Shown: positions 30,632 to 57,900, numbered from the stretch's first letter. The stretch: DNA of 64,000 nucleotides from Azolla caroliniana (GCA_043228905.1 JBHGNT010000005.1:22320001-22384000), one strand, 5' to 3'. Numbers and translations: made by a program. The notes: generated by a model from the sequence alone, not told the origin.

Positions 30632-31258
30632 TCCTTCAAAGATTTCTTCTTCTTCTTCTTCTTCTTCAAAGAAAACCCCTTCTTTCAACCTCACAATGCA
30701 TTACTTGGCCTTCATTGATTGATCTTGAGTTGCAACATGCTTTGAGAATGCTCATAAATGTAACAATATCAAGGAAGATACCATTAGATTGCATATTTTC
30801 AAAGCATTCAACAGCTTCTTCAGATTTTCCATATGTAACTTCTCACCCATTCTTCTTAACATAGAGCTACAATTCTCAAGCTTAGATCTTCTTTGACCCA
30901 TTTGATTCATTTCGTCTTCTTTCCTTTTTAAGGCCTCAATGCATCTAAGAAGAGATTTTTTAGATCTTCTCAGGTGAGGTTCATAACCAACTGTATGTGG
31001 TGAGAAGCTATGTATAGCTAGATCAACATAAGAATCGTAGGTTTTTATATCTGAGATGGCATCTCGTAGAGTTCGGCAAATGTCAAGAAGCTTAACATTG
31101 TCATCTAAGTACTCATCTGACCATTTGAAATCACCTTATGCAAGAGCCTGTTGAAGATCAGGGATAAATACCTCTGCATATCCATGTGTAGAAAGAACCA
31201 CTTCTTCCATAGCTTGGCAAAGCCATAGAATACTCAAATATCCGCCTTCATCGGTTGA
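30632..31258 (-). pseudogene. Captured chimera in the left MULE arm: BPS1/ROH1-like (DUF793) fragment ~31258-30839 fused to a PLS-PPR fragment ~30838-30670
   Basis: Reads GYLSILWLCQAMEEVVLSTH...FIPDL...*GDFKWSDEYLDDNVKLLDICRTL, like the BYPASS1 core, followed by YGKSEEAVECFENMQSNGIFLDIVTFMSILKACCNSRSINEG (PPR). Confidence 0.8.
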
Positions 31259-31344
31259 CTTCAATCTCTCCAATTGCTGACAAAGATGTGATTCTCTCCA
31301 ATTGCTGACAGAGATTGTATCTCTAATATGTGATTCTCTTCTTT

Positions 31345-31641
31345 GGGTAGTCTTTCAAACACAATCAATGAAGTCCAGGAGATTGTATTTCTAACATGTA
31401 AATTATCGAAAACCTGTCTAGCTCTCTCGATTGAGCCACATTTTGCATAAGTATCAACCAAAGTGGTAGCCAATGAGACATCACTATGTAGGAAACTTGT
31501 CGAATCACATTCTACATGTACATGAAGACTTGTTCTCATGTCTCTTAACCTTATACAAGCCTTGAGCAAAGCAACAAAAGTATGTTCATTTGGATGTGAA
31601 GAAGAAACATCAACGTTTCTCATCGTTTTGTATAGATCCAA
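31345..31641 (-). pseudogene. Captured PLS-class PPR gene fragment
   Basis: PNEHTFVALLKAC...TLVDTYAKCGSIERARQVFDNLHVRNTISWTSLI. Confidence 0.88.
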
Positions 31642-31721
31642 TGCTTTCTTCTTCTTCTTCTTCTTCTTCTTCTTCTTCTCTTTGTCTCGCTCTCATTTCG
31701 ATGTTTGATGTCTCTCATAGA

Positions 31722-33561: not shown

Positions 33562-34890
33562 ATATATTTGATTTTGTGGATATTTTTGGAATTACACTTT
33601 TTGTATTGGATTGGTAAAATTTGGAATTACACGTATTTGATGTTCTTGTGTATAAGTAAGAGATGGATAGGTAAGGATTTCGTTGTAACTAGTTTCGTAT
33701 GGGAAAGGAATGGAAGAGGTTTATGTGAAATTAGTAGTAAGAATCATTACGATGATTTGTTATAAGAAAAAAATTGGAAAAAAATTCATTTGAGATTGGC
33801 AGTAAATACTTTTGTTTTGTATGAGAGAAATTGAGAATAAATTCATCTGAGATTAGTAGCTATTGTACAATGTTCTTTGTGCTTTTGCTACTTATCCTTA
33901 TGTATGTCTGATGCTAGTAGTCGTTGTTCTTATATGAGAGAAATATAGTAGTAACTATGTGGAAACTATTGTTCTTTCGTGCGGAATGTTATTGTATGGG
34001 AAAAAGGAAGAAATTCGTCTAAAATTAGATATAAATGCAGAATCTTTGTTGTTTCACTCTTCATGATTGTTGTTTGACAAAAGAAAATGAAAATAAACAT
34101 TTGAGTTACTGTATGAAATTTTTGTGATTTGACTCCTTCTTGATGTTGTGTGTGCAAATGAAATGGAGGAAATTTGGCTGAGGAAATGATTAACTATAGA
34201 AGAAAGGGGGAGAGCCCTACGAGATTAGTAGTAGCTTGTGCTAACACTATGTGTTCATGTGACAAAAAACATGGAAGAAATTCATCCGATATTAGTAGTA
34301 TGTGCATATTATTCCAGTGCATTTTTTTATCTCTATAGTACTGTGGTATACATTCATATTCAAAGATTGTAAAGCCTACTATTGTTACTTAGGATTCTTT
34401 TGAATTATTAGATGATATAGAAGTTGTGATCCAAGGAATGCTTGGCTAGTAAGTATACGGAATTATTCTACAATCAAGGAATTGGAAAACGTTTTGTATT
34501 TTATCCCTGATTATCAAGTACATGAAACTCTTGTGCTAAGCATTCACATGAATAGGATTTGGAAAACCTAGAAACTCTATCCTACAATTCTTATGAATTG
34601 TCGAATAATTACTAGCCACTATAGTTCTCCACTACTCATATCCCCCTCATCCTTTGGATTAATGGAGAGATCATGATGAACCATCCTTGGCGAATATGAT
34701 GCAAACCTACTGAATTGTTGTTCATGATGCCGATCGGTAGGCCTTATATGCTCCACATCATGTTTACATTGGCAATTAGCAAGCCTACATTGAGGTAGTG
34801 TAAGATTGTGATGTGCTACTTTGGGAGATTTTGCAACCATATAAAATTGTGGATCATGATGAGAAATAAAAGTGGTCAAAATTGGCTGAT

Positions 34891-35460
34891 GTTCTTTCTA
34901 CACATGGATATGCAGAGGTATTTATCCTTTATCTTCAACAGGCTCTTGCATAAGGTGATTTCAAATGGTTAGACGAGTACCTAGATGACATTGTTAAGCT
35001 TCTTGACATTTGCCGAACTCTCCGAGATGCCATCTCAGATATAAAAACCTACGATTCTTATGTTGATCTAGCTATACATAGCTTCTCACCACATACAGTT
35101 GGTTATGAACCTCACCTGAGAAGATCTAAAAAATCTCTTCTTAGATGCATTGAGGCCTTAAAAAGGAAAGAAGAGGAGATGAATCAAATGGGTCAAAGAA
35201 GATCTAAGCTTGAGAATTGTAGCTCTATGTTGAGAAGAATGGGTGAGAAGTTACATATGGAAAATCTGAAGAAGTTGTTGAATGCTTTGAAAATATGCAA
35301 TCTAATGGTATCTTCCTTGATATTATTACATTTATAAGCATTCTCAAAGCATGTTGCAACTCAGGATCAATCAATGAAGGCCCAGTAATGCATTGTGAGG
35401 TTGAAAGAAGGGGTTTTCTCTGAAGAAGAAGAAGAAGAAGAAGAAGAAATCTTTGAAGGA
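34891..35460 (+). pseudogene. Inverted copy of the BPS1-like + PPR chimera in the right MULE arm
   Basis: Reverse complement of 30632-31198 with few mismatches; KWLDEYLDDIVKLLDICRTLRDAI and FENMQSNGIFLDIITFISILKACCNSGSINEG. Confidence 0.88.
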
Positions 35461-36730: not shown

Positions 36731-37556
36731 AATAATATTATTATATCACATATAAAAATATTTATTTTCTTTAAATAAATTAATTAATTAAATAAACGAA
36801 TGATTTTATAATATGCTTGAGGCCATTTCTTATTCTCGAATTTTTGAATATCACAAATGGAGAATATCATGAATAACATGCATGTGTCAATCTATGCAAC
36901 TAATTGGCATCTCCACCCAATGTGTACTAGTTACAACACCTCTTTTTGTTGATCCTTAGCTCCAACATTAGTTGAGAACGCAATCCAAGAACTTTATTGG
37001 ATAGGTTGCATGGATTATGAGGATTGAGTTATGTATATTCACCAAGAATGATTATTGTTTAGCCAATTACCCAAATGTCATTGATATTGATCATGTGCAT
37101 GGGGCCTAATGGGTGCATTAATTTCAAAGAATAGGGTATTGATCATTATTGACTAGATCTCGTTTGTGCACATGAAGACCCTTAGCCCATAGGTAGGGAG
37201 CCTTGAATATTGAATAAAGTATGATTATGCTCATCGGAGTTGTGATGCCTTTGACAATATTGCATGTGTAAAAAGAAACACGACACTTTTAAACAAGAGC
37301 AATGCATTATCTCTAGTCATGATTAGTGTGTAGCTAAAGGAGAAAGGTAAGTGGATCGAAACGAAATAGCATTAGATTAGCATTAGATTAAGTTAGAGAG
37401 ATTAAATGTTACTTGCTACAACATGCCAATGGGGACAAAAGCAAAGAAGAACTAGAACCCTTGCCATGAAAGGGCCTAAGGTTGTTCCATGATAATTTGT
37501 TTATCGATCGATTATTACAAGCATCGCACCACGTTGCATTTTACTTTGTAGAGCTA

Positions 37557-38651
37557 CTAATTGAAGTTTCCACAAGAAGTTCGGTCCGGTAATAGAAGGC
37601 CGGTGAAACTGAGCCGGGACTTGGCAAGGTCAAACTCCACCAAGTTCTCTTGTTGTTGGTAAGTGCCTAGGACAGATGGTGCGTTCACACCGGCATCTAC
37701 GAACGCCCAACAAAGAACATTACCGGCCACATTAACCATAGAGTTCCAGCCGAAGATGTACCACACAGCGCCACCCGACAATTGTAGGTCGATATCCGCC
37801 ACGCTAGGGAGCATGCTCATGTAGATGAAGTTAGTCCTGTTGAAGCAAGTGTCGAAAGGGGCTTGAGTAGACAATGGGAGGGCAGGTGTGGAGGTGCCGA
37901 ATCCGATGGCCTTCCGGAAGGCGGAACGCACACGGAGGTATAGCTTGTGTTCCAAGCGGGTGTAGGTGGTCTCGATGCTCACGTAGAGTCGGAAGGGGCC
38001 CACATTTAGAGATTTGGAGCTGACCACAATGTCCCGGACGGATATCGAGTAGGGGCTAGACACGTGGCTACTCCGGGACGATGACACGTGGAGGGTCGTG
38101 TGAGAGAAGAGAGCTGAACGGTCACTGTAATCGCCTCCCGCCCCGCCTCTCGAGAAATACCCATCCCGGCTTCCCCCTAGGAAAAGTGGCCCCTCCGGTA
38201 AGCAATATGCGAAGACACGAGAGGCATCACTTAGGCTGCTGGCGATCTGAGCTGGCAATGCCAGGTCACCGCCCCCGAGGGCCGCCTGCCCGGACCTGCC
38301 ACACCGGAATGCCACATGGCGGACCGCGGCCGGCACGACTGGAGGCCTGCCATTGGTTTGGTCGAGGCGGAGTGTGTCCTCGGAGTGCCCGTTGCGGCGG
38401 CGGAAAGTGGAGGATGTGGAGGGCTGGAAGGCGGAGGAGGCGCATCGGACGGTGGACACCCGGGCTGCGAAGGTGATGTTCACATTTTGGGGCTGGGGCG
38501 GCGTGCCGAGTGGCAGGCTCACCGTGTACACACCATCGACAAGGCGGACATTGGCGCGTAAAGGGGTCGAGGAAACATGTAATGTGGCCATGGAGGAGCC
38601 CACCATGGTGATGGTGAACATGACAAGGTAGGTAGAGAAGAAGCTCTTCAT
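37557..38651 (-). CDS. XEGIP/EDGP/TAXI-family inhibitor-like protein, copy 2, intronless
   Basis: Intact ORF paralogous to 17334-18443 with the same non-catalytic motifs (ITFAA, VSIET) and ENLVEFDLAKSRLSFT...RTSC. Confidence 0.88.
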   Translation of the reverse strand: MKSFFSTYLVMFTITMVGSSMATLHVSSTPLRANVRLVDGVYTVSLPLGTPPQPQNVNITFAARVSTVRCASSAFQPSTSSTFRRRNGHSEDTLRLDQTNGRPPVVPAAVRHVAFRCGRSGQAALGGGDLALPAQIASSLSDASRVFAYCLPEGPLFLGGSRDGYFSRGGAGGDYSDRSALFSHTTLHVSSSRSSHVSSPYSISVRDIVVSSKSLNVGPFRLYVSIETTYTRLEHKLYLRVRSAFRKAIGFGTSTPALPLSTQAPFDTCFNRTNFIYMSMLPSVADIDLQLSGGAVWYIFGWNSMVNVAGNVLCWAFVDAGVNAPSVLGTYQQQENLVEFDLAKSRLSFTGLLLPDRTSCGNFN

Positions 38652-39898
38652 AGTCACGATGACGATGAGTTCTTTAAATGTAAGTCCTTACTCATCTTTT
38701 ATAGATGACTTCTCTATCCTAGCGGGGTTGGGGATCGGGGTTAGGATCGGTAGTCTAGTCTACCACATAGCATGGTTTAGATATATTATGTGCTTTACAC
38801 CCACAACACATTTCACGCATGGACCCTGTCGAAACGATATGTGTTCGGCTTTTAGGAATAGATTTAGGTGTTGTTGCTCATCCACATTGCAAAGAGAACA
38901 AGCCTTCTAACATGCCCCACCTCGACATGGGTTGAATTGAGCATGCCCCTTGGAAATTATATTGATTTTCTTTGAAGTTTGGGAAGCATTGAGTGAGTAA
39001 CTTGCCATGTATGCTTTCCATGTCTCATACAAAATGCGACCCCTTTTACCGATTTCTCACTATTTTATGCATGAGGTGGAAACTCCCAACACATTTCCCT
39101 ACAAAGAAGCCCACTAATCTAGATTTTAATTCATCAGTCAACATCATGCATTAAAAATCATAACGATGGCTTCAACTTGGTCAACTTTAGTATTAATGTG
39201 TATATTCTATATAAATAAATGTGTGTGTGGATGCGTCAACATTTTGGAGGTTTTAATCTATTACATCTTAATGTTGACGATTTGCATCTTCAATTCCAAA
39301 ATTTAATTAGTTTTTCAGGACATTGTGGATAGGTTTTACACCGATCTCGTTTGACCATGTCCTTTTCAAACAAAGGCTTTATCTAAGGTGCATTTCGTAT
39401 CTTGTGGCTGTGGCGCCCAAGGATCCAATGTTAGGCTAAAAAGTCAATACTCTTGTTATAAGCAAGTTGACATGATAAAAGCACCTTTAGCTTCTTTATG
39501 TGAAGAACACGCCAAAAAATGAATTCAATGGTAAAATAGTTATGATTGGTCATCCCTCTGTGGATTTTCTTGAGTACGTTTGCAATTTGTATCAACACAT
39601 GTGTTTAGTATACAATAACATGCAATATAACCCGCCTAGTTTCCACCTATGTATAAGTAAGGAACCCTCAGTTCTAGTTCCAAATCTTCAAATCATATCG
39701 TTGCAGGATCCAATATCCTAGCTACAACGATAAGGCACCCAACCCTATACCAACTTTTAATTGTTTTTGCAACATTTTTGCGACCTGGTTAGAATCTAGC
39801 ATAGTTCTATCAAGCACAAATAAATGACTGAACTTTTGTTTGAACTCCTGAAGTGTTGCACTTGCACTCAACATTTTGTTGGGAGATTCGACCCAATC

Positions 39899-40353
39899 TG
39901 TTACAGGCATGACCATATAGTATCCCGTGGTGAGAATTTACCGTAGTATTCTATACACGTGGATAAGTGTGAGGGTTAAACGAGAGTGTAAAGAAGGGGA
40001 GGATTACTTTTAATCCTCATGATTGAGACAACCCATTAGGCCAAGTGTGAACTTGCCTGGGGGCCTTGGGTATCGCTATAAATAAGAGGCCTAGCTACCC
40101 TCATTTCATCATCTTGTTGACTACGTCGAGACTCTGTCTTGTGGTGGGTCAACTCTTGTAGCGAGCGCGCCAGCACCAGGTACGACTCGACACCACGACG
40201 GTGGTATGGGACGTCGATCGAGGCTCTAGTCCGTCTCGATCCCTTCGCTCGGGGGTGGTCGGGTGGATCAACACCCTTCTTTCTCTCTCTCCTTTCTATC
40301 AAGATCTATATTCTATCCTTATCTAATGCTTACATTAGTTCATGTCTCTAATA
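39899..40353 (+). mobile_element. Solo LTR (455 bp) present only in duplication copy 2
   Basis: TGTTAC...CTAATA (terminal CA probably mutated to TA); 5-bp TSD CAATC; TATAAATA inside. Absent from the homologous site near 19715 in copy 1. Confidence 0.85.
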
Positions 40354-43300
40354 CAATCCTTCTTCCTTGTTCGGGATGAGTCATCGAGGTCATACTCCTC
40401 GAGTAGGTTTCTTTCAAAAGTTACCCAATCGGGCTTGCTACTTGTATTTCTAGGATTAGAGAATGAAGGCTTGAAGCGACGATCCTTCCAAAACTTGAAT
40501 GTTGCCTTGCCATGGGTATATACCTCTCATTCGCATTTTAGTTTTATAGGACTTCATGTATCGGGTCACATCTTCCCCATCAAAGAAACCATTTGCATCC
40601 ACGATCTTTTCAATGGCCTTGTCAAGGCCTGTAGTATTGTCCCTCTCGCGAAGCGGTCCATCATCATGGCTATCACTTGATTCACCGGTCATCCTCCCTT
40701 GCAACTCATTTCATGTCGAGTTGACCAAATTTATGTCCATTATTTTAATTCTTATTTAACATTGTATCCTTTAATTATTATTATTGTTGTTGGAAGAGCA
40801 ATGGAAAGCGGAGAGTTGTTGTTTTTCTGCAGAGGAAACGATGAACAACACACACAGAAGACAACACAAGAAAAAAGACACACACAAAAATATTTTAGCG
40901 GGCACACAGAAAACCCTCATATTATTAGCTTATATACCTATTCATAAATAGTGAGAATTTACCTTTTTGGCCTTTCTCACTATCTATCAATTTCCCACTA
41001 AAGGCCAAACAAGGGATCAACAAAGCTTATGGGAAGACTGCACAAGACCTAGACATCCTACTTGATGAATATGTTACACAATATACGTAAAACAGTGTGT
41101 AACCTGAGGAACTAAGTAATTCCCATCAAGTGACAATAATGCTCTATCGCATCACGTGGTAGAGCTTTGGTCAATGCATCAGTGGCATTTTCTTGAGAGA
41201 CAACATTCTCAAGACTAATGTAGCCAACAACTATGCATTCTCAGATGAAGTGATACCGCACTCCAATGTGCTTGGTCTTTGTATGGTATATTGGGTTTTT
41301 CGCTAATGCAATGGCACTCTAACTATCACAAAACAATACGGGTACAAGTTTAGGTATGCCCATGTCACAAGCTAATCTGGATAGCCATACAGCTTCCTTG
41401 CATGCTTCGCTAGTAGCAACATACTCTGCTTTTGTAGTGGACAGAGCAGTACATTCTTGGAGACAAGATCTCCAAGATGTGGTACCTCCCATAAACTGAA
41501 AAATATACTCTGAAGTGAGTTTTCTACTCCTATAATGTATACATTTCTGCCACCTAAACATAGACACTTATTCTTGATGCCACACGGATATCTTATTATC
41601 ATTTTAATTGCCTCCCTATGTTTCTTACCAGGGTTTGACAAAAATCTGCTCACAGCTCCCACTACAAAAGCAATGTATGGCCTAGTCGCTATCATAGTGT
41701 ACATAAGACTACCAACAACTAACTGGTAATGAATTTTACTCATGAACTCCTTTTCATGATTAGATTTGGGGCATTCATCTTTGCTCAATTTAACATGCAT
41801 AGATAATGGAGTGATCAAAGGCTTTGCATTCTCCATATTAAACCTCTTGAGTATTTTGCATACATAGTCAAATTGAGACAAATAAATACATCCATTACTC
41901 CTATCCCGAGTAATACGCATTCCAAGGATCTATTTAGCATTTCCCAAATCTTTCATATCGAAGGTTTGACTCAGATTTTTCTTTAGTTTGGACAACTCAT
42001 CCTTGTTTTTACCGGCGATGAGCATGTCATCTACATAGAGTATCAAAATCACATATGAGTCATCTATACATTTCTTCGTATATAAGCATGAGTCTTCATT
42101 TCTCCTAGCATAACTTTGGGACGTCATAAAAACATCGAATTTTTTATACCGTTTTCGAGGTGATCGCATAAGGCCATATAAACTTTTCTTAAGTTTACAT
42201 ACCAAAGGCATTTTCCCATAAATTTCAAAACCCTTTGGTTGCTCCATTGAGATCTCCATGCAAAAAAACCATTTTAACATCCATTTAAAATAAATCAAGA
42301 TCATTTTTTGCAACCAATGCAAGCATCATGCGTAATGTACTCATCTTGACTACCGGAGAGAAGATTTCATTGAAATTGACTCCTTAGTATTGTTTAAAAC
42401 CTTTTGCCACAATGCGAGCTTTATACTTGGGATGAACACTATCGGATGTGTATTTGTACTTATACACCCATTTACATGGTAGTGCTTTCCTAGCTTTTGG
42501 CAAAGGCACTAAATCCCGAGTTCCATTCTTATGGATACTATCCAACTCATTTGGCATTGCTTGCTTCCATTTAGCATGATTGTGAACAAATATGGCTTCA
42601 TTGTAACATGAAGGCTCACCGACATTTGATAACATTACATAATCAACAAATTTACTAGGTGTTTTGGAGACACGGGTAGATCTCCTCAATGATTCCTAAA
42701 CATGAATACCATCTGACACGTTCGCATTCACAAGTGGAAGGATTGCGCATTCCACTTGTAGAATCTTCTTGAAACGAAGCAAATACACCCTCTCTACAAA
42801 AATTGGATGCACTAGTATCACATGTTCCTCAACTTGATTAGAATTTGCAAATATAAAAATACATGATAGGTCTACGAGTGGTGATACTATTTTTCGATGA
42901 CTGGTGATGAGCAAGACACTTACTTCGGGTCACATATGCAACTAGTATCTGACAAATGTACGGGGATCAAAGTTTCATTCGAGTATTATATCTTCCATGC
43001 GCAACAAATATGTAGAGTTGCATTCGAAATTGCGTTATGTGTTAGTAACATGTGGCTACATAGAGTACAACAACGTCTACTTAGCGGGGATCAGATGCTC
43101 AATTGTAAAGAGGTTCTAAGTATGAAAAGTGCAATTGGAAGACATGCTATTGGTTGGATGAAAAGTTACTTTCAGTTAAATTGTGAAGTAATGCCCACTA
43201 CAGGTAGGATGCACGTTTCTGATAATTATACACGTTGGGAAGTTTATGATGTTTATCGATCTAATATGGTGGGCTCACGTAATAAGTCTATTACATATAA

Positions 43301-43858
43301 CCAATTCACAAGATTATGGAGAGCTCGGTTTTCAAATGTTATCATTCCACGTAAAGTACGCATGGGGTATTGCTCCATTTGTGCAAATCTTAAAAGTTTG
43401 GCTAAAGGTGCAAAGACATCAATGGAAAAGGATATGAGTAAGAAGTTACTACAAGAGCATCGTGAGGCACAATCGTTAGAACGAAAGAAGGTGATGCATC
43501 ATAGAGAGAAGTGTTTGAAGAGGCCCGAACAATACATGTGCTTAATGATAGATGGCATGGACCAGAAGACATAGTTCCTAATATTCGCGTACGTCCAATT
43601 TACTGGACGTACGCGAACGTTTGCAAACGTACGCGTATGATATGCGATATTCGTTTGGCTTTTTTTTTTTTTTGACTTTTTTTTGGTTTTTTTAATTTTT
43701 GATATTCATAATATTTTGTGAATAGAAGTGACATCTGACACACATACACACTCTCTCTCTCTCTCTCTCACACGAGAACTGACAGATTTTCTCTCTCTAC
43801 AAAATCTAGATATCTAATATACATATTACATACTCCCTCACACAGACAAAACCCATAG

Positions 43859-43890
<32 letters not shown>

Positions 43891-43998
43891 GTGTCTAGAT
43901 ATACACTCAATCACTGTCTCCTCACACATGCAAAACAGGGCTTCTCTCTCTAGACCACACACGCTCTCAAAAAGGTTAAAGAAGAGGTTAAAAGTGAT

Positions 43999-44487
43999 AT
44001 GGAATTAGCTAAAACTGGGTGGGTTGATGTAGTAAAACGTAATATTAAAAAAGAACTAAAGGATGAAAACATTGTAAACACTACCCTCGAGGAAGAAAAA
44101 ATGCGTCAAGCTCGACGCCTAAATGTACGAGTTACTGGGCTCAAGGAAGGGGCATCTCCGGATGAAGATGCACAAACATTAGGGAAAATGATAGGGTACG
44201 AAGCCCTACCAATCACTAAAACCTGGAGGGTAGGGCGTGACACAACTAGGAAAAGAGCTTTAGTCCTTCAGTTTAAGGACTCAGAATCTAGAATCGCCTT
44301 TTTTAAAAAGAGACCAATTCTTCGAGGCTTGGGCGGGGAGCCTATCTACCTCGATGAAGACTTGACCAAGATGCAAATTGAGCATCGTAAAACTTGTATG
44401 CCACGAGTCATACAAGCTCGTAAAGAGGGGCATCGTGCTTTCTACCGGGACGGACGTGTCATAATAAATGATCGTGCCGCCAATTGA
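43999..44487 (+). CDS. LINE ORF1, C-terminal RRM/CTD-like part (5' truncated)
   Basis: NVRVTGLKE...IYLDEDLT...ARKEGHRAFYRDGRVIIN is typical of CR1/L2/RTEX-type ORF1. The frame is open upstream of the ATG. Confidence 0.75.
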   Translation: MELAKTGWVDVVKRNIKKELKDENIVNTTLEEEKMRQARRLNVRVTGLKEGASPDEDAQTLGKMIGYEALPITKTWRVGRDTTRKRALVLQFKDSESRIAFFKKRPILRGLGGEPIYLDEDLTKMQIEHRKTCMPRVIQARKEGHRAFYRDGRVIINDRAAN

Positions 44488-44493
44488 CGGCGT

Positions 44494-47400
44494 GTGGCCC
44501 ATGTGACAGATAATAAACTTAGGATCACTTTATGGAACTGTAACGGCGCACTTTGGACACATCCTGGCCTTCTAGAGGAGATTTTGAAAGTATCTGATAT
44601 ACTTTTTGTAGTAGAAACACATCAAAGCCCAAATCGAGGACTGCCACGAGTTGACGGTTTTCGTTGGGAATCTGTCTTTAGACAAACCTCACGTCGACAC
44701 ACTACTAGAGGGTCTGGGGGGGTTGCGATATTATTTCGGAAAGAGATAAATAATAGGATAGAAATACTAAAGTCAGACCCAGAAGCCCGTTTTATGTGGG
44801 TGAAAGTCCTCACTAGTAAGGATCAGGTGATATTTATCGCAGTTTGTTACTTCCCCCCGAAAGGGTCCCGCTACAATATGGCTGGAGAGGCGAGTATAGT
44901 TGATGAAGGAACGCCACATGGGCCTTCTCCATACGAACCTTTGTCGGATGACATAATCCGATATTCTTCTCAAGGGGAAGTCTTCCTGGTAGGAGATTTC
45001 AATGCGAGAACCCAGTCCCGACAATGCACAATATTTCAGATGGATAGAAACCTAGAAATGGTGAATGTCGACCCTTTAGCCTTAGGCATAACACGTACAT
45101 CGAAGGATCAAGGTGCGGATGCCACAAGCTTTGGCCATCATCTGCTTGAACTTGGAAGCCGACACCAGATGATCATATATAATGGCTTAGCCAAGTGGCC
45201 GGGCTCGGAGGAGCTCACATGTTTCCCACATGGAGGAGGGGAAAGCACTGTTGATTATCTAATAGGACGCCCTGAAGCTACCCACATGGTTAGCTCCTTC
45301 CGGGTGGCCCCATGCCCCATTGGGGCAGACCATACCTTCCTATACTTTGAGCTAAAATGTGACACCTCCCACACCACCAACTCTAGTAAACCAACCCATC
45401 ACACTATAATACATTTCACGCATGAGCTCGCGGACATCTACTCTCGACATGTTCAAGCCCATCTTTCCTCGTTTGATTCTTCCTTGCCTTTAGAGAACCT
45501 CACTACAGAACTCACACACATCCTTCACTCAGCCGCCACTAGTAGCTTCCCATACACGAAAGACTCCAATCATAGTAGAATAGGGTCTATGCCACAAAAC
45601 AAGTGGTATGACGAGGATTGTAGAGAGTTGTATAGACAACTTAAAGTATCGCGACTCAGTGGTACTATCTCCTTAGTACAGGCTCGCAAAGAGATGCGCA
45701 AGATGACACGTCGTAAAAGACGAGCTTGGGAAGCATCTCAATATTGGGAACTCTACCATATGCTCATGAGTAGGGATTGTGCCCTTGCATGGAAGAGACT
45801 ACGGGAACCGAGACCACAAACACCCATCGAGGATCCCAATATTTGGCACACATATACCGAGAGACTCTACCATGTCCCGAACCAACCACCCATTCCAATG
45901 CCCTCCACACCTCGACCTACCATGGGGACACTTTTCACGACCTCTAGGGTCACGAAGGTCATAAAAAAATTACAACATAGGAAATCCATGGACCACACAG
46001 GATTGCGAGCCGAGCACATCATATATGCTCGAGAGTGCCTAGCTCCCCTTCTCACTCTAATCTTCAACCGCGCCCTCGCCGAGGGTTTTCCACCACAATG
46101 GGCCATGAACACTGTGGCCCCTATACATAAAGGAGGGGACCCAATGGACCCAAATACATATAGGACCATTATGATAGGTCATACGCTTGCTAAACTATAT
46201 GGTGCAGTAATGGAAGCGGAGCTCAGTGATTATATGGAAACATTAAGTCTTCGAGCACCTGAGCAGGCTGGCTTTAGACGAGCCTTCTCCACTATTGACC
46301 ACATCTTCACACTTAGGTGCTTAATTGACCAAACAAAGGCTCGTAAGAAGAAACTATATTGTTGCTTTGTGGACTTTCGCAAAGCCTTTGATACAGTTCC
46401 TAGGGAGAGGTTGTTTGATAGACTTAAGAGCTTGGAGATACCAAATGACATGATTTGGGCCATTTATGCCCTATATGAGCAAGTCTAAGGGCGCGTAAGA
46501 TGCCCAGGTGGCCTATCCGATTGTTTCACTAGCACCATTGGTGTAAAACAGGGTTGCCCCCTATCACCGACTCTTTTTGGGATCTACATTGATGAGATCA
46601 CTGATTTTATTGCTCGTAAGGGAGGCAAAGGAGTGGCTATTGGGGATACGCAAGTTAGTCTCTTACTCTACGCAGACGACATTGTCTTGCTCTCGGAGTC
46701 GGAACACGACCTACAAAAGCATCTTAATGCCCTAGATGACTTTTGTACACAACGAGGACTGGTAGTGAATCTAGCGAAAACTAAAGTCCTTATCTTTCAT
46801 ACATCGTCCAGAGTTAGGAGTAAATGTCACCTCATCCTCTCTCATAAACTAGTTGAGGTGGTGGGATCTTATGTATACTTGGGAGTCACTTTTAGTGCTC
46901 GCTCAGGTAAATTCTCGATGACCCAGGCAGCCAAAGATAGGCTAACGAGAGGATATGCATCCCTCTCACTCTTTGAGAGACAATGCCACCAAGCATACTT
47001 TCAAGAGCCACGGACTAAGGGATGGCTTTTCGACTCATTAGTGACCCCGTCCCTCATGTATGCATCAGTAGTATGGGCTCCAGGTCTACCATCTTTCATG
47101 TGGACGCAATTGGAGAGACCTTTAGTGGTGATGTTATCACGTCAACTCCGAAGCAAATCGACAGTACCACATGACATTATTAGAGCGGAGTTTAGCCTAC
47201 CCCCGATGTTAGTAGAAGCACTCTTTCAAGTGGTAGCTTTTATTCATCGGATACATAGTCAACCACAAGATAGGATATCCCGTCGAGCCTTTGAGGCATC
47301 CCGATCCTTACATGTGTCTGGAGACACCAACTCTTGGTATAGCATTGTGGTGAGTTGGTTATTTGCAAATGGCATAGACATTAATAACCTACCTCCCCTT

Positions 47401-48240
47401 AAGTACAACCATGGGACTGATCAAACTTTAATCTCTCGTGAAGATCGTAATAAAGTGATACGCCAAGAAATATGGCAAATCTACACTCGATACAAATGGA
47501 TCACCCCACGAGAGCCACTCCCATCTAAAATGGTGTACTATAAGGAACACTTCTTGCACTTCTCTAAGTTAGGGTTTATTACACGACCAAGATACCTAGA
47601 TACTTTCTTATCAAATGCACTAAGGGTGGCCATTGGACAACTTAGGATATCATCTCACCAACTTGAGATTGAGAATGGTCGAGCTAATAGAGTCCCTAGA
47701 GAGGAAAGGCTATGTAGGTTATGCCACATAGAGATAGAGGATGAGTATCACTTCACATGCAAGTGCCCAACTTATGCCGAGATACGGGCGGAATACCAAG
47801 ACATACTAGGACCCTCTCCCACCCTCTCCAAACTATTAGATACCCCGAGTGTAAAGAGACTAGGTAGGTATATCTTAGAGCTAAAACAACATAGGGAGGA
47901 TAAATTACAAAGTGTTAATCATAACCCTTTTACTACTCATCAACATGTACCTAGTGTAATTTTTCAGGAACATGGGGAGACGATGAATGTGGATACACTT
48001 ATGCCGCTCGGCCTCTCCCTTGAGGAAGCAGAAATACAAAGAGCAACCAAACGTCCTCGGATGTTGGGCTTCAACACAAGTCAACGTGGAGTAGAAAAGA
48101 TTAAGAAGATAAGGGAACGTGAGCTACGTCGACTCGAAGCTATGGTTGGGGCACCTCTTACATGGGGACCACGGGCCACATCCACATCATGGCAACCCTT
48201 TGACCCCCCGCTTCTCTTCGAGAGACTTGGATGGAAATGA
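44494..48240 (+). pseudogene. LINE ORF2 (endonuclease + RT + zinc finger) with one in-frame TAA at 46486-46488
   Basis: LRITLWNCNG, VETHQ, LVGDFNART, STVDY, GADH; EQAGFR, FVDFRKAFD, GVKQGCPLSP, LLYADD. Both ORF halves are in the same frame. Confidence 0.9.
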
Positions 48241-50563
48241 AATTAGGCCTAGTATAGAATCATTCTCATTGTAGAACATGTTTTTTATATAGAACATGTT
48301 TGTTGTTTTCTTAGAACTATTTAGCTTAAACTCTATTTTATCTTATTTTTATTTTTACTTTCGATGAATGGGTAAATATCCCATTTTTGTTGTACACCTT
48401 TTGTCTCATGGGCCAATTTTGGCCTTAGAAGACGTTAATATATCTTTCTTTCTTTCTTTCTTTCTCTCTCTCTCTCCCCCTCACACACACACACTATGTA
48501 CACCATATACACCATATGTATATATAATATATCTATGTACCGTGTATGGATTTCAATCATACTTGGAGCCTTTTCACGTATGAGTATGATACGAATATTG
48601 ACGTTTGAGTATGACACGAATGAGACGTATGGCTAGAACTATGCCAGAAGAAGACGTGCTTGCCGCATATGCGGAGGCTCCCCAAAGATGTCAATGATGA
48701 GTGCCTTGTTCAAATGCACTTGGTGGGATGCTTGGCTTATAATAGGTCTGTTGGACCTCACGTCTTCATTACATACCCCAATGTTCACAATGACCTTAAC
48801 CTAACAATTACAATGATTCACCAAGTTTTGATGTCTTGGGGCCAACCTTTCCCCCTATTCTATACATTCAATTGGACAATACTGCTAGAGAGAACAAAAA
48901 TTCAACTGTGTTTGGCTATCTAAGTATGTTGGTCAACCAAGGATTGTTTAGGAAAGTGAAAGTCAATTTTCTTTTGGTTGGCCACACACATGACCATATA
49001 GATCAGATGTTTAGCACATTCTCCAGACAGTTGTCTTGACATGATGCTTTCACTTTACCTAAATTATTTGATGTCATTTGTGATGCATATACACCACGCC
49101 CAAAAGTGTTACACTTGAAGGAGGTATATGACTTTAAGAGATATATATCAGATGGGGGTGGTGGGAATGCTAAAGTGCTTGCCCTGGTAAACAATATAAG
49201 TTTCAATCACATTTTTATGATAAAGAAAAATGGAATAAGTGGTTCTACACTTTTGTATGCTAAACAATATTCATCTTCTACAACATGGGAACCTGAAGGT
49301 GGTTGCCAGTTATTACTTTGTATGCCGAGTACAATTGCCCATGGAGCTAAGCAAATGCCAATTGAGAAGAAAGGACAGTTGTAGAGTGACTTGGTATCGG
49401 ACCAAAAACGGTCATGGCTCCAAGCCTTAGAAGAAAAAAGAAAGCATATTGAGGTCGCCAAGAAACATGCTGCACAACAAGACACAAGACACGTCATGAT
49501 GGGATGTATTTTATAGTGATAACAAAGGAATTATAGACAATTGTGTATTTGGTGATAATTGGAATTTGGAAACGTCATTCACATGGTAGCCGCAACATGA
49601 TCGTGTAAATAGAACTCCGGAGCAACCAACAAATGCGATTAATGACAACTTGGTCCATCCACAACAAAGAGACATTTATGTGGGACCAAGGATGACCAAA
49701 GCAGCCGAAGCTAGATGGCAAGGCAATTTGCAAGAGCTCACCGCGGGGATGTTGATTGCAACGCCGACTGATGAGAACCACCAATTTTGGGTTGGTAAAA
49801 TTCTAGAAGTGCTAATGCATGAAATAGAAAACACGATCAAGTCTATAAATGTTCATTGGTACAACACTAGAAGTGCAAATGCTTTTACATGTAAGTATAC
49901 ATTGGAGATGATTGAATGCCCAACAAGAAGGGGAGGTAGGAAGCGGAAGTGAAACATTCCTAACACCTCGACCCTTGATATCTCTGATGTGGATATCATC
50001 GTGTACGACTTCACACTTACAAAAGCCGGACGATTAAGGAAGTCAACAATAGATATAATAAAAGAAAAATTACCAGGTCTACAAGGTGGCTCGAGTCAAA
50101 GGCAAACGAGATCTGCTACATATAATCTAGAGTCAAACCATTTGGTTTATGACGAAGATAATGCACTGATTGGTACATCCGAGGATGACGAGGAGGAATC
50201 GTCATTGTATATTAGTTATAGTAGTGATTCTCCGTAAAGGAGTGATCACGAATGTATATTTGGCTATTAAGTGTAACTACATTCCGCTTGTAACAAATCG
50301 AGTAATATAAAAGCATGTGTTTTGAATTCTTATGATTTCTAAAAAATCGTTTCTTATAAAATAACATTGGTTGTAAAGTTTGTGATATAAATTGAGAATG
50401 TAACTTTTTGAAATTCCTCTTTTTTTAGTTACTTCTAAATCACGAAAATAGTGGATTTTTAACCTTTTTCATAGTATGTTTGAACATGTATGATACTGGT
50501 ATCAATGTGTTTTGTAAAATCATTGAAAAAGCCCTAAAATCAACCAAAATTTCCCTTATCCTT

Positions 50564-50609
50564 TGTAAAGAATCAAGAGATGGATTCTTGTGAAGCGGAA
50601 TAGGTGTGA

Positions 50610-50657
<48 letters not shown>

Positions 50658-51302
50658 AGATAGAAAGAGAGAGACACAGAGAATACGCAAGGTTAAGTAT
50701 ATTAAGAAAGGAGAAAGACACCACACATACAAGGTCTGAGGAGGGTGCTTTATATAGTCACCCTCTCTCTTCATTAACTACAAGACTCATGGAGCATGGG
50801 GAATGTGAAAGCTCATAAGTTATATGTCATAGAATATGATTCTATGACTCATACTAAATGCTAGAATACAAAGTGGTGACATAATGGTGACTCTTGACCG
50901 TTGGAGAAACAATCGACAACGGTTCGGTTTTGTAAAGAATCAAGAGATGGATTCTTGTGAAGCGGAATAGGTGTGTGTGTGTGTGTGTGTGTATGAGATA
51001 GAGAGAGAGACATAGACTATACACAAGGTTAAGTATATTAACAAAGGAGAAAGACACAACACATACAAGGTGGGAGGAGGGTGCTTTATATAGTCACCCT
51101 CTCTCTTCATTAACTACAAGACTCATGGAGCATGGGGAATGTGAAAGCTCATAAGTTATGTGTCATAGAATATGATTCTATGACTCATACTAAATGCTAG
51201 AATACAAAGTGGTGACATAATGGTGACTCTTGACCGTTGGAGTGTCTCTTCAGTCTCGAGGTGAGTTCACACACTAGACCAAGTTGAGCTTGATTCTCAA
51301 CA
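50564..51302 (-). mobile_element. Compound solo LTR: partial LTR 50564-50906, 24-bp linker, full LTR 50931-51302; related to the LTR at 20613-21065
   Basis: 5-bp TSD TCCTT flanks the whole unit; TGTAAAGAAT...CTCAACA ends. Confidence 0.87.
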
Positions 51303-54300
51303 TCCTTCCATTTATGCGCGATCCTTCCACTTGTGAACGCGAACGTGTTATCAAGTTATGCAAGAGAAACATCATTTTGAGCATATCATCATTTTGAGCA
51401 TGTTTTTGTTGAAAATCATCATTTTGCACATCATTATGTTGAGCATCATCATACTGACCAATAACAGTTTTTTGTGACCAACCACATGTAGAAGCATCTA
51501 CATCAATAAGGTTTTTCTGTTTTACATCAACAGAAGGCATAATATCTTTAAACACAAACTTTCTCACTTCTACCTCCTTTACGAACTGTTTATGCATTTT
51601 GTTCTCATAAAAAACAACACCACTACTTCTGACCATAGTCCATGTGTCAGGGTCCCATAAGCGATATCCAAATTGTCCATCAATTCCATAACCAAGGAAT
51701 ACATTTTCTGCATTTATAGTCCAACTTCTTTCTTAGAGTTTTTGGAACGTGTACATATGCTTCACATCCAAAAACTCTAAGATGAACATAATAAGGTGTC
51801 TTGCATGTCCACAAATCTTGTGCCACTTTTAGACCTATGGTTGTGTTCGGTGATAGATTAATCACATGGACTGATGTTAAAACAACTTCTGCCCAAAAAC
51901 CTTGTGAGAGGTTTGCATGGTGTAACATAGAGACAACTTTGTCCTAGATTGTTCTATTCATCCTCTCAGCCACACCGTTTTGGACAAGGGTGTAAGGAGC
52001 TATAAACTCTCTCTGAATGCCTCTAGAATCACCTCCATTGTCCGAATGTAAATCCTTAAGCTTTATGTCCTTTCCCAGCTCAACCGGACTAAGCCATTTT
52101 CTGAAAGTAGGGTATACATCATCCTTACCCTTAATAGGATAAACCTAAACTTTCCTAGTGGCATCATCAATAAAAGTAACAAAGTACAACACACCACCCA
52201 AAGATCTTGTGGGTATAGGTCCACAAACATCCGTGTGGACAAGGTCCAATGGTTTAGTGGATGAGTTAACACTGGTCTTATGTGCACTTCTGGTTTGCTT
52301 ACCATGTTGGCAATGTTCACATAAGGCAAAATCAGAGAATGACAACTTAGGTAAGTGGCCACAACGAGATAAATTTTCTATGCCATTTCTCAACATGTGG
52401 CCTAAACGGCCATGCCAAATGCTCGTCATTGGTTGGTTTGTGACAGCCAACAAACGTTCTTTTTTATGAACAATTAGAGGGTAGAGGGAACCAAATTTGT
52501 TCCCTTTTGCAACAATCATATTTCCTTTCGTTATACGAAGAAGGATTCAGAAGCGAATGTCACCTTATATTCGTTGTCATCAAGCCGACCAATGGACATT
52601 AGTCTACAAGTTAGTTGAGGAACATTGCTTACATCTTTAATGGTAAGATGAGAACCATCACTAAAGTGCATTGAGATATCTCCAATACCAATCACATCAT
52701 ACTGATGTGAATCTCCAAGTCTAACTTTCCCAAGTGACTTGGCTTCATAACATGTGAACCACTCTCTATGTGGAGTCACATGGAATGATGCATCGGAGTC
52801 CAACAACCACGTATGTGATGGAGAAAAAACCATATTCACCCCGACATGTGTGCTAATATCATCTAAGACCAAGATGCCTACCTCATCATATGTTACATTT
52901 ACTTCCTCTATTTCCACCGAGGATGAGGGACCACTTGATTGTCTTTCATGCCCATCACCTTTGAATTTAGCATTATCCTTTTCCTTATTTTTCAGGGCAT
53001 AACAATCTTTCTTGAGGTGTCCCTTTTTATGACAATAATGGCACTCCATATTTCTCTTCCTAGATTTGCTTCTACCTCTATTATTTCGACTACTATTTCT
53101 CGTTTGGCTCCTACCATGGTGTTGGTTCTTGCAAGAACCAACATCATAAACATTATATGCATCTTTATTATGTGATGCAATCATAGATTTCCTACGAATC
53201 TCTTCACCCAAGAGTGCTCCACATATGTCATTATAGACTAATTTCCCATTTGGTGCACTAGCGTTAATAGCTGTGCAAAATGTGTCCCATGAGCTAGGCA
53301 AAGTGCATAACAGAAATACACATTTTAGCTCATCGTCCATAGTCATTTTCTGAGCCTGTAATTGTGACCATAATGCATCAAAATCATTCAAATGAGATGC
53401 GACACTATCGTTGTCCTTCATTCGAAGATCCTAAATTTTTCTCATTAGATAAACTTTATTTGATGCAATCTCTTTTTCGTATGTACTGCACAGTTTAGTC
53501 CATAACTTTTTGGCTTACTCATAGTCCAAGACCGTGAAGTATACATTGTCAGCTAGGTGCAATCTTATGTTAGACATTTCCAAGAGATCGAGCTCTTCCC
53601 AATCGTCCTTGGTCATGCCCTCATGTCTATTGGCTTTGCCACCTAATGGCCTTAATTGCCTTGTTTGAATCAGAACATCTCTCATCTTATTCTTCCACAA
53701 GGCGAAGTTGGATTCGCCAAATTTACGGATCTCAAGGTGGTCTTTTACACTCATAGAGTGATTTCTATGGGAATTAAAGGAACCACCGCGTGAGGTACTC
53801 GAAACCTTGGACATTTCAGAAGCCATTGAGTGGTAAGTAAACCTAGTCAGTTGCAACTCTAAGCACCTAATGATAGTTGGGACACTACTTACTTGTAGGT
53901 CTCAAGTACAACTATCACCGTGTTCAAAGGTATGTATGTGTGTTCGCCTAAGAACAACACCTCACTCTTATCTCAGCCAAAGGTAAATGGAATGTGATTA
54001 AGACACAACTTCCAATGTCACAATCTCGCATCAAGTGAGCAAGCATTTGAAAAAAAAAATGCAAGTCCTCTCTTTTGTAAACTAGAAACGAGTGAGTCCT
54101 CTCTGTTTCTAGGTTTAGAGAAGAAGAAGAAAACAACCTTTCAAAGGTATATTTCCCCCAAAAAAAGCTTGAAAATGAGTTACTACAAAAGCAAGTACTA
54201 GATATTACCTCTGTTCGACGAGTTCTTGACAAAACAGCATACGCAGAGGGGCAAAGACAAGGAAAAATGAGTGATTCCCACCACGAATGATGTCTTGCAT

Positions 54301-54985
54301 GTAGTCCAGGCTCCGATACCACTGTTGGAAGAGAAACGGGAAGCGAATGAGTTGTTGTTTTTCTGCAGAGGAAACGATGAACAACACACAGAAGACAGCA
54401 CAAGAAAAAAGACACACTGAAAAATATTTTAGCGGGCGCACAAAAAACCCTCGTATTATTAGCTTATATATCTATTCATAAATAGTGAGAATTTACCTTT
54501 TTAGCCTTTCTCACTATCTATCAATTATTACTTGTATTTTATATTTTATTATAAATATTTAATTAGTTTTGGGTGGTTAGGCGATGACAACCGATACCGT
54601 CAGACAGTGGACGGTGATGTTCAACCAATAACAATTGATGGCGGTGGGCGACGACCAGCTAGCAATAGTGGGTGGAGAGCAAAGCAATGGTGGTGGTGGA
54701 GACAACGGTCCCCCTTTCCCTTAAATTATCTTTGTAGCCTCCTGAAGGGGATGCACCTATAAGTTTAAACAATTTATTGTTTTGACCCCAACTTCGGGCA
54801 TCATCCGGTGGAGGGAACATCAGTTGTGGCCAACGTGGCGAGTCTGACTCCCATTGTCTGATAGTTTATGGGAGGGCATAATTTGTTCCGGACACATTGA
54901 CCATATAATATCCTATGGTAACAAGTATTGTAGTATTCTATACATGTCCTAAGGATTAAAAGTAATCCTTCCCTTCTTTACACTC

Positions 54986-57900
54986 TTTTTTTTTCCAAAA
55001 AAAAAACTCCTTCCATTAGTTATAAAATTTTACAAATGAGACGATTATGTACAAATCCCTGAAGGGATGCGATAGTTCCATCTTATGTGGATGCCCACTG
55101 ACTCAAGAAAGGGAGAGGACGACCATTGTTGGATGAAGGTTATTCGTTGTCTTTCAACTCCCTCAGAGCCGCCCTTGAGGCCATCATATTGGCTCTTCAG
55201 AGTGGCTACAATTTCACTCCATATCTCTTGCAGTAACCTTGTTGGATGTGCGGTTTGGTTGGAGAAGACTCGCCTACATCGTTGTTTCCATAGAATCCAA
55301 AGGGTTATTGGGTTGACCAATTCCAACACCTCTTGACATTTGTCATTAAGAGGAGTGGAGTGGACATTGCCGCTGGAGGAGAAAAGGACCTCTTGTGCTT
55401 TTATCACCAAAGTCATCCCCTCCTCCTGATGCTCGTATCTTCCAATTGCGGTCTGCCATGATAGCCAACATATATTTCCCCATTTGATTGAGCCTTGCAC
55501 CTAGCATAATTGTAACAAGCGGCCAACCCCCCTACCATATTTGATGGGACATTAGGCAGTCCCACAGAGTGTGTCGTATTGATTCTACTGCATGTGGGCA
55601 CTCTACACAATTAGGAGAGCTAAGGTTCCCACGTTGCCATGATCCCACCGGTAGGGACTTATGTATTAATAGCCATTGGAACGTGGTAATTCGCCTCGCG
55701 TGTTGTTGTTTCCAGATTTTCTGCCAAAACTTGGTGATTGGGATCAGCTTATATCCCAATCGACCAGTCTCAGAAAACGCGAATCACAAACATTGGAGGT
55801 ATTATCGGCATTGGACGTGGCGAAGCCGCAATGGTACCACTTCACCGCGATCGTGATCGCGGGAATGGGATTCTTCACTGATGCCTACGATCTCTTTTGC
55901 ATCTCCACGGTGTCAAAGCAAGGAACTTGAAATGTGGGCCAGACCTTCGCAACAGCCAGTTCTCGGGCAATTTGAGCAGCTAGAATGTGGCGACCCAATC
56001 TAGTTGTGAACTGGAAGAAAGGGATGGGTTTGCTTCCTTGCCCCGCGTAGGGATCACGCCATGTCCATTGCAAAGGGTCCCAACTGACCTTACGTAGCCC
56101 TGTGTTTTCATGAGTACATATATGCAAATCGGGTTGTACTTTGATCGGATCAGGATCTACAATCCATTTATGACCAATATATGCGAGTACTCGAATTGCG
56201 TTATTCTGTGTTGGTGTCTCAGTGTCTCTCAATTCAGAGCCTTCGACTCTGTCTGGTGGTCCCCTACCTCTCGGGATCAGAGATCCCTCCTCCTCGTGGC
56301 CTATCCTGTTCTCCATTGTCATCCTTTGAGTAGCAGATTCCCTAATTAGTAGGGCGTTAATGATTTCCGATCTCATAGTCCATCCGCCCCTGATTCCATG
56401 GAGTATGTTCACCTGATCTTGTAGTGGCGTTGACATAAACCGTCGCCAACATTCTATACTTTTTCCTGGACCTTCTGCAATGTATCCCCATGACAACCCC
56501 TTAGGTGATCCTAGTAGTTGATTAGATTCATCCTTGAGACATGGGTTCCATAGGATACGTTGACTGAGCCAGGCAAGTTCGGATCTCAGTTGATCACACT
56601 TGAGCCCTTGACGAATGTCACACCATGCCTTCCACATGGATGCACTAAATCTATCCTCCAATTGGCGGGAGAAACTAGGTTTGAGATCCATGTTTAGAAT
56701 CCATCCCATTTGGGGGGCCCAATTAACCCCTTTTTGTGGCCTAAAGTAAGCGAAACGTAACCTCAGTAGCATTTTCCAACAATCATTTCCTGGTTGGAGT
56801 CTTCGCACCACAAATTTGGCAAGTAAGGCTTTCGATTGTGAAAGGGGATCAATAAGACCCAATCCCCCTCTCGACTTACGCGTTGTGAGTATGGGCCACA
56901 CGACCTTGGCACGAGTTACATTGTCTTCCTTACCAAACCAAATGTAGTTGCGGACCAGTCGTTGAATTTGATGTATACTTTCCTTGGAGATTGTCCAGCA
57001 TGATAGACTGTACCATGTTGTTGCGAGTAGTACCTAATTTGCGACTATGATGCGACCCGCTAGCGACAATTTTTTTGAGCTCCAATGTATCAATTTTTGT
57101 CGAATGGAATGGATAACGGGTGCAATCATAGTCTTCGGCAGTATGTTGAAACCAATTTGGAAACCCAAATATTTGGTGCTCGCTCCTTGATTGATCCATT
57201 TGAAAGCGGGATGTGGGTGCCACTCTAGATGTGTTTCCTAAGAGAGCCATATTGCGCAGGGTTTGTGCCAATTGATCATGGCGTTGGATCTCTTGCAAAA
57301 TACAACTAGCCCACGTTCTAGCTTTTGGAGGTTTTCCAAGTCCCCTTGCAGCTAAACTGCTGTGTCATTTGCAAATTCTATATCCTGGATGCTTTGGTGA
57401 GAATGAGGTATGAGAAGACCACATAGGTTGAGATGTCGCGAGTTGAGAAAGCAAGAGAGTGCTTCGGCATATAATAGAAATAAGGATGGAGCTAGTGGGC
57501 ATCCCTGCCATACAGATCAAGATATTCGAAAAAAGGGGCCCCTTTCACCTGCCAGCAAAACGCAACTGCTACCATTCCTATAAAGTCCTACAATGCCTTT
57601 GATCCATGTCTCTTGAAAGCCGAGTTTCCTCATCACACTTTCTAGAAAGTTCCAGCATACCATGTCATATGCTTTCTCAAAATCTAGTAGCACCACCGCA
57701 ACCTTGTTGTTGGTACGCTTGGCAAGGGCTACTACTTCCCAGAATGAGAAGAGGTTGTCTAGGATGCTTTGATTTCTAACGAAACCTGTCTAGGATGGAT
57801 GAATGAGTTGAGGGAGAAGTGGTGTTAAACGGCGTGCCACGATTTTTGCGAGCAACTTATCGACAGTATTGAGAAGAGTTATGGGCCACCACTTGCTAAT

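What the first reader, a model, noticed from the sequence alone, without database searches (positions are those of the whole stretch)
42714..51350. Sola-like DDD transposon in a land plant with unusual termini (TRACACG, 2-3 bp non-TA TSD)
Seen: ~37-bp TIRs. The reconstructed empty site (ACCATCAAG, which restores the copia reading LD-GIHV) allows only a 2-bp TC or 3-bp ATC duplication. Candidate catalytic aspartates lie in IDGMDQ, QLDN..RENKN and GHTHDHIDQ. Known: these motifs resemble Sola1-type transposases (DN..xNKN, FL..GHT...D), but Sola elements are described with 4-bp TSDs, and the ends are not CACT/CAC, TA-targeting, hAT or MULE type. Inference: an under-described or new DNA-transposon group.
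Basis: partly seen in the sequence, partly recalled or inferred. Interest (0 to 1): 0.7.

Follow-up and report, generated by a model that had tools for sequence, protein, structure and literature searches.

The report
Decayed plant Sola transposon, ordinary 4-bp TSD
This is a broken copy of a common plant jumping gene whose sister copies duplicate four bases at their insertion site, as known Sola transposons do; the full-length sisters also carry a gene predicted to methylate DNA, a design already described in algae.

Summary
The element is real, but the claimed novelty is not. Its terminal repeat matches about 620 times per strand in the genome. Paired copies end AACAC...GTGTT, and 22 of 23 have a perfect 4-bp target duplication. 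The window's target was ATCA (17 of 19 copia paralogs), and two bases at its left junction differ from expectation. The transposase is a DDD protein whose motifs match a published Sola1 profile by eye. Ectocarpus Sola1-1 has the same AAC...GTT ends and 4-bp TSD, and Sola1 is known from moss. The window copy is dead: a unique ~6-kb deletion, a MITE with a nested LINE, an LTR-like insert, frameshifts and stops. The deleted part holds a spliced ParB-like + beta-class amino-methyltransferase gene under purifying selection, plus a palindrome array. That gene pair is published for Ectocarpus, and ParB beside inverted-repeat arrays for red algae. This scan has already noted the same family and cargo many times, on this genome and others. 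Verdict: new member of a known kind, low interest.

The parts
42711..42714 (+). Left copy of the 4-bp target duplication; reads ATCT where the target was ATCA
   Evidence: paralog empty site ATCA in 17 of 19
42715..42750 (+). Left TIR, 36 bp; first base G where the family has A
   Evidence: first base A in 28 of 30 ends
42880..42885 (.). Junction of a ~6.0-6.4 kb internal deletion that removed the cargo gene, the palindrome array and the first ~170 transposase codons
   Evidence: blastn against full copies, junction; junction pattern found once in the genome
42885..43569 (+). Transposase 5' remnant (aa ~170-397), with first candidate catalytic Asp (codon 43551-43553)
   Evidence: tblastn 92%; D392 nearly invariant among 24 homologs
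43570..48643 (.). Nested insertion: ~580-bp hAT-type MITE (43570-43968 and ~48445-48643), 8-bp TSD at 43562-43569 and 48644-48651
   Evidence: 18 of 19 sister MITEs have an 8-bp TSD; 'hAT-type' rests on recalled 8-bp TSD rule
43969..48445 (+). LINE inserted in the MITE's (CT)n tract: short ORF 43954-44487, endonuclease-RT frame 44488-48240 with one in-frame stop
   Evidence: ORFs; Pfam Exo_endo_phos and RVT_1; boundaries
48652..50237 (+). Transposase 3' remnant with second and third candidate Asp (48875-48877, 49001-49003); at least 2 frameshifts and 5 stops
   Evidence: D473 and D515 invariant
50564..51302 (.). LTR-like insert (TG...CA; a truncated plus a whole repeat unit) with 5-bp TSD at 50559-50563 and 51303-51307
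   Evidence: related units occur in pairs ~5 kb apart elsewhere
51314..51349 (-). Right TIR, 36 bp
51350..51353 (+). Right copy of the 4-bp target duplication (ATCA)

Best explanation
The window holds a dead, internally deleted copy of a high-copy ~9-kb DNA transposon family with AAC...GTT ends and 4-bp target duplications, most likely Sola1, whose full-length members carry a second gene predicted to encode a ParB-like DNA-binding methyltransferase that would bind the element's own palindrome array. Shown: ends, TSD length, copy number, deletion, nested inserts, the two reading frames, and purifying selection on the second gene. Inferred: the DDD transposase binds the 36-bp TIRs, cuts the element out and joins it with a 4-bp stagger at weakly A/T-biased sites. 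Inferred and untested: the cargo protein loads as a dimer on the 51-bp-spaced palindromes and puts an amino-methyl mark (6mA more likely than 4mC, from the Asp-led motif) on element DNA, helping expression or transposition against host 5mC silencing. The window copy lacks that module and can no longer encode a transposase.
For: TIR pattern: 619 + 628 matches, reversed control 0. Ends identical in 18 of 18; 4-bp TSD in 22 of 23. Empty site ATCA in 17 of 19. 926-aa transposase open in 8 of 17 copies, Pfam DUF7869 E 3.8e-50. D473-H509 region matches Sola1 profile positions 86-105 at 10 of 20 consensus letters without gaps, with the same 36-residue D-to-H spacing (by eye). The model puts the Asp residues on RNase H-type elements. 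Ectocarpus Sola1-1: AACCG-CGGTT, 4-bp TSD, opposite-strand ParB+methyltransferase. Cargo: four GT-AG introns in 16 of 17 copies. Homologs carry PF01555, match CcrM, MboIIA and RsrI and fold like ParB/Noc (E 2e-5). dN/dS 0.05-0.50 in 15 of 16 comparisons. Palindromes number 2-12 per copy, mostly 51 bp apart, and a ~67%-identical non-autonomous copy keeps 8 with changed spacers.
Against: AWWT target preference, called a Sola1 hallmark in PMC3845634, is met by only 2 of 23 TSDs. No HMM score, tree or comparison with Sola2/3 was made. Foldseek gave no transposase match at E<=0.001 (best TnsB 1.7e-3). The window's own left junction needs two adjacent changes to fit a 4-bp TSD. The cargo's catalytic motif is DIPY, not the canonical DPPY/SPPY (recalled), so it may not methylate. 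One dN/dS comparison (L039) gave 1.04, probably misaligned across its deletion, and all comparisons share one reference copy. Copies show raised CG/CHG transitions (0.026-0.029 vs 0.003-0.005), so any anti-silencing effect is incomplete. Nothing ties the palindromes to the ParB domain rather than the transposase or a host factor.
Confidence: 0.8

Rival explanations
1. A new DNA-transposon group with TRACACG ends and a 2-3 bp TSD.
For: In the window alone, exact 2-bp (TC) and 3-bp (ATC) duplications exist and the 4-bp one has a mismatch.
Against: 22 of 23 paired copies have an exact 4-bp TSD; the supposed terminal T is variable (T in 11 of 30 ends); the 2-bp match follows from the shifted boundary. 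A published Sola1 has the same first three bases and a 4-bp TSD.
Confidence: 0.02
2. Same transposon, but the cargo is a catalytically dead methyltransferase fold that acts only as a DNA-binding helper (anti-silencing or end-pairing scaffold) on the palindromes.
For: Motif IV has a hydrophobic residue at position 2 (DIPY 48, DVPY 9, DAPY 8, DIPH 8 of 108 homologs covering it). Element copies bear the mutational trace of host 5mC.
Against: Asp, Pro and Tyr of the motif and the FSGxG SAM-binding motif are kept in homologs below 50% identity, and the gene is under purifying selection.
Confidence: 0.3
3. A Sola-superfamily lineage separate from Repbase Sola1 (an AAC-ended, methylase-carrying clade shared by algae and seed-free plants).
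For: No AWWT preference (2 of 23); AAC ends and the cargo are shared with Ectocarpus, whose TSD is also not AWWT.
Against: The Ectocarpus curators file their element as Sola-1 with best hit Sola1-1_PPa; Sola ends are described as very variable.
Confidence: 0.15

Closest known systems
Sola1-1_Ec32 of Ectocarpus (PMC12477816; passages and supplementary table 3 rows read, FASTA supplements not readable)
   Same: AAC...GTT ends, 4-bp TSD that is not AWWT, opposite-strand ParB-like + N4C/N6A methyltransferase gene.
   Different: 21.5 kb with 282-bp TIRs and 2 intact copies, against ~9 kb with 36-bp TIRs and hundreds of ends here; no palindrome array mentioned in the passages read; sequences not compared.
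Sola superfamily / Physcomitrella Sola1 (PMC10741241 and PMC9033089 passages; PMC6786969 passage on Azolla SOLA; Bao 2009 itself not held)
   Same: DDD transposase, 4-bp TSD, 2-9 kb size class, variable ends, presence in mosses and ferns.
   Different: No AWWT preference; second gene not mentioned in those passages.
Plavaka elements of Bostrychia (bioRxiv 10.1101/2025.02.11.637652; one passage read)
   Same: Transposon-borne ParB-like domain beside tandem inverted repeats, plus an N6-adenine methylase gene.
   Different: Different transposase superfamily; ParB is fused to a 2OG-oxygenase and the methylase lies in a separate gene.
Beta-class amino-methyltransferases (CcrM, MboIIA, RsrI; PF01555) and Marchantia DN4MT1 (bioRxiv 10.1101/2021.02.12.428880; passages read)
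   Same: Motif order IV ... QKP ... FxGxG.
   Different: DIPY instead of DPPY or TSPPY; ParB fusion; borne on a transposon. Relationship to DN4MT1 not tested.

Membership tests
Sola superfamily | 4-bp target-site duplication | tested here: met
   22 of 23 pairs exact; definition from PMC10741241
Sola superfamily | Terminal inverted repeats of 11-1124 bp with variable ends | tested here: met
   36-bp TIRs, AACAC...GTGTT in 18 of 18
Sola superfamily | DDD transposase with RNase H-type core | tested here: met
   D392 nearly invariant, D473 and D515 invariant in 24 homologs; strand/strand/helix placement; Foldseek hits are DDE/RNase H folds but weak, E>=1.7e-3
Sola1 subgroup | Match to the Sola1 RNase H profile | tested here: inconclusive
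   Positions 82-124 of 124 read and compared by eye: 10 of 20 and 4 of 13 consensus letters identical, same spacing; no score computed, Sola2/3 profiles not compared
Sola1 subgroup | AWWT target preference ('hallmark' in PMC3845634) | tested here: not met
   2 of 23; the Ectocarpus Sola-1 row also lists a non-AWWT bias. Filed therefore as Sola, Sola1-like
Sola1 subgroup | Nesting among Repbase Sola1 transposases in a tree | not testable with these tools
   No Repbase sequences are held
ParB + amino-methyltransferase transposon cargo (Ectocarpus type) | ParB-like domain fused to PF01555 domain, on the strand opposite the transposase | tested here: met
   Full-length copies only; domain calls made on homologs; absent from the window copy
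Beta-class amino-methyltransferase | Canonical (D/N/S)PP(Y/F) catalytic motif (recalled definition) | tested here: not met
   DIPY in 13 of 17 copies; D-[IVAL]-P-Y family variant
Beta-class amino-methyltransferase | Methyl transfer to DNA | not testable with these tools
   Needs an assay

The most novel reading that the evidence does not exclude
Seed-free land plants host a young, high-copy Sola family that encodes an active bacterial-type DNA amino-methyltransferase, clamps it through a ParB domain onto a parS-like palindrome array inside the element, and so writes 6mA or 4mC on its own copies and on non-autonomous derivatives that keep the array.
Probability: 0.35. Interest if true: 0.65.

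Novelty: new member of a known kind. Interest (0 to 1): 0.22.

Why it matters
As submitted, it does not matter: the odd TSD is a boundary error on a decayed copy. The family has some value. It is young (pairwise transposase differences 0.3-7.5%), very abundant, and has copies with both frames open (2 of 17), so it offers a land-plant test of the algal proposal that transposons bind and mark their own DNA with a ParB-methyltransferase. That part lies outside the window and has been reported by this scan many times.

Tried and rejected
2-bp and 3-bp TSD models: rejected. A deletion-derivative subfamily: the junction occurs once in the genome, so the deletion is private to this copy. A LINE with TIR-like ends, or a TIR element carrying a LINE: rejected, the ends belong to a ~580-bp MITE. 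Pfam on the ParB exon and on the methyltransferase exon alone gave nothing significant; domain calls rest on homologs. The ESM Atlas gave unnamed eukaryotic clusters, DUF3723 and, at rank 22, ParB_N (35% of members), a lead only. RNA search: no RNA holder listed. The methyltransferase half of the Ginkgo homolog model was low-confidence and was not used. Bao 2009 and Yuan & Wessler 2011 were not held, so their definitions are second-hand. Literature searches for a land-plant Sola with this cargo returned only the Ectocarpus paper as relevant; most subscription journals and Repbase Reports are not searched. bioRxiv supplements were closed.

Full report
Observation. The inverted repeats are there (42716-42750 and 51314-51348, 94%), as are the three Asp motifs. 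The window alone cannot decide.

Sister copies decide it. A 28-nt TIR pattern with one mismatch has 619 forward and 628 reverse matches in the 523-Mb own genome; the reversed control has none. Only the first 100 places were listed. From these I fetched 18 end pairs under 10 kb apart and used 5 longer pairs from the 30 single-end loci. All 18 fetched elements read AACACGTT...AACGTGTT. Of 23 pairs, 22 have an exact 4-bp duplication and one has a single mismatch. The first base is A in 28 of 30 single ends, while the base outside it is T11 A11 G4 C4. Moving the boundary one base out gives a '2-bp TSD' in 23 of 23, which is only the inner half of the 4-bp one. In the host copia, 17 of 19 paralogs examined (of 40 matches listed) have ATCA at the site. 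So the window's right copy is intact, and its left junction has two adjacent differences (last TSD base, first TIR base). Post-insertion mutation is the likely cause, given ~5% divergence from sisters; a one-off imprecise junction cannot be excluded. TSDs are 70% A/T and only 2 of 23 are AWWT.

Anatomy of the window copy. Against full copies it lacks ~6.0-6.4 kb at 42880-42885, a junction found once in the genome. The 43570-48643 insert is a ~580-bp MITE (8-bp TSD in 18 of 19 sisters) with a LINE in its CT tract (Pfam endonuclease and RT). An LTR-like piece with a 5-bp TSD sits at 50564-51302. The transposase remnant has at least two frameshifts and five stops. It is dead.

Transposase. Full copies encode 926 aa in one frame (open in 8 of 17), Pfam DUF7869, with named homologs in Ceratopteris (63%), Adiantum and Riccia; the host is therefore likely a fern (inference). 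D473 and D515 are invariant and D392 nearly so in 24 sequences. The model (mean pLDDT 71) places them at strand, strand end and helix, as in RNase H cores; Foldseek returns TnsB, integrases and RNase H, none at E<=0.001. I read positions 82-124 of the published Sola1 profile (PMC5751038 supplement): positions 86-105 match residues 473-492 at 10 of 20 letters without gaps, the F-L-x-x-G-H motif follows, and the D-to-H distance is 36 in both. This is by eye; Sola2/3 were not compared.

What is known. Sola elements have DDD transposases, 4-bp TSDs and very variable ends, and occur in Physcomitrella (PMC10741241; PMC9033089) and Azolla (PMC6786969). Ectocarpus Sola1-1_Ec32 has AACCG-CGGTT ends, a 4-bp TSD and best hit Sola1-1_PPa. 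AWWT is called a Sola1 hallmark (PMC3845634) and is not met here, so I file the family as Sola, Sola1-like.

The deleted cargo. Full copies carry an opposite-strand gene. Four GT-AG introns of 76-91 nt join in phase in 16 of 17 copies, giving 930 aa without a stop in 4 of 17 (the non-autonomous L047 was left out). A short upstream exon joins in frame in the one copy tested. Ginkgo and Ceratopteris gene models run across the first of the four junctions. Homologs carry PF01555, match CcrM, MboIIA and RsrI, and the N-terminal half of the Ginkgo model matches ParB and Noc (E 2e-5). dN/dS against one reference copy is 0.05-0.50 in 15 of 16 comparisons and 1.04 in L039, which is ~1.3 kb shorter and probably misaligned; the transposase gives 0.36-0.88. 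The catalytic motif is DIPY in 13 of 17 copies, and D-hydrophobic-P-Y persists in homologs under 50% identity (108 of 129 hits covered the motif). Each of the 17 full copies has 2-12 palindromes, mostly 51 bp apart, upstream of the large exon; the window has none. A 2.7-kb non-autonomous copy, ~67% identical at its end, keeps eight degenerate palindromes with other spacers, as expected for a site read on its arms by a dimer (inference).

Mechanism. Cut-and-paste with a 4-bp stagger is inferred from ends, TSD and fold (about 0.95). The cargo protein binding the palindromes through its ParB domain is inferred from analogy and co-retention (about 0.6). Active methylation is untested (about 0.5), given the non-canonical motif. 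Copies show five- to ten-fold higher transitions at CG/CHG, so the host still methylates them (inference).

Novelty. The gene pair is published for Ectocarpus Sola1-1, with the self-marking proposal. ParB beside tandem inverted repeats is published for red-algal Plavaka elements. My searches found no land-plant report, within a library that lacks most subscription journals and Repbase. The scan itself has 103 notes holding these words in at least 3 genomes, six of the eight shown... five from this same genome; these are leads, not support, and they gave me the profile source and the six-exon and palindrome readings that I then checked. The finding as written is an annotation slip on an ordinary decayed member; interest 0.22.

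Noticed in passing
window 43570-43968 and ~48445-48643: Young ~580-bp MITE family with CATAGTTC...GAACTATG ends and 8-bp TSD (hAT-type by recalled rule); at least 40 near-identical ends, 274-311 first-look candidates.
   Followed up: yes
window 50564-51302: LTR-like insert made of a truncated unit, a 22-nt linker and a whole unit inside one 5-bp TSD; related units occur in pairs ~5 kb apart elsewhere.
   Followed up: partly
window 30632-35460: 570-bp inverted repeats (97%) around a 555-aa frame at 31894-33558 that looks MuDR-like by eye.
   Followed up: no
window 17079-19720 and 37291-39898: Duplicated region (~82%) with two aspartic-protease-like frames (17337-18494, 37557-38687, minus strand; label by eye).
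   Followed up: no
window 39978-40022 and 54947-54991: 45-nt inverted repeat flanking the whole copia-plus-Sola nest; nature not resolved.
   Followed up: no
L031-L048 coding regions: Synonymous divergence between the same copies is often three to four times higher in the cargo gene than in the transposase (about 0.09 vs 0.025), which suggests exchange of the cargo half between lineages.
   Followed up: no
L047 (G000:C3:12341450-12344500): 2.7-kb non-autonomous relative with the same ends and a 4-bp TSD that keeps eight degenerate palindromes.
   Followed up: partly
P0027, P0032 (Ginkgo gene models), P0034 (Calypogeia), P0033 (Adiantum): The ParB-like cargo domain has homologs in a gymnosperm, a liverwort and ferns; their genomic context was not seen.
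   Followed up: no
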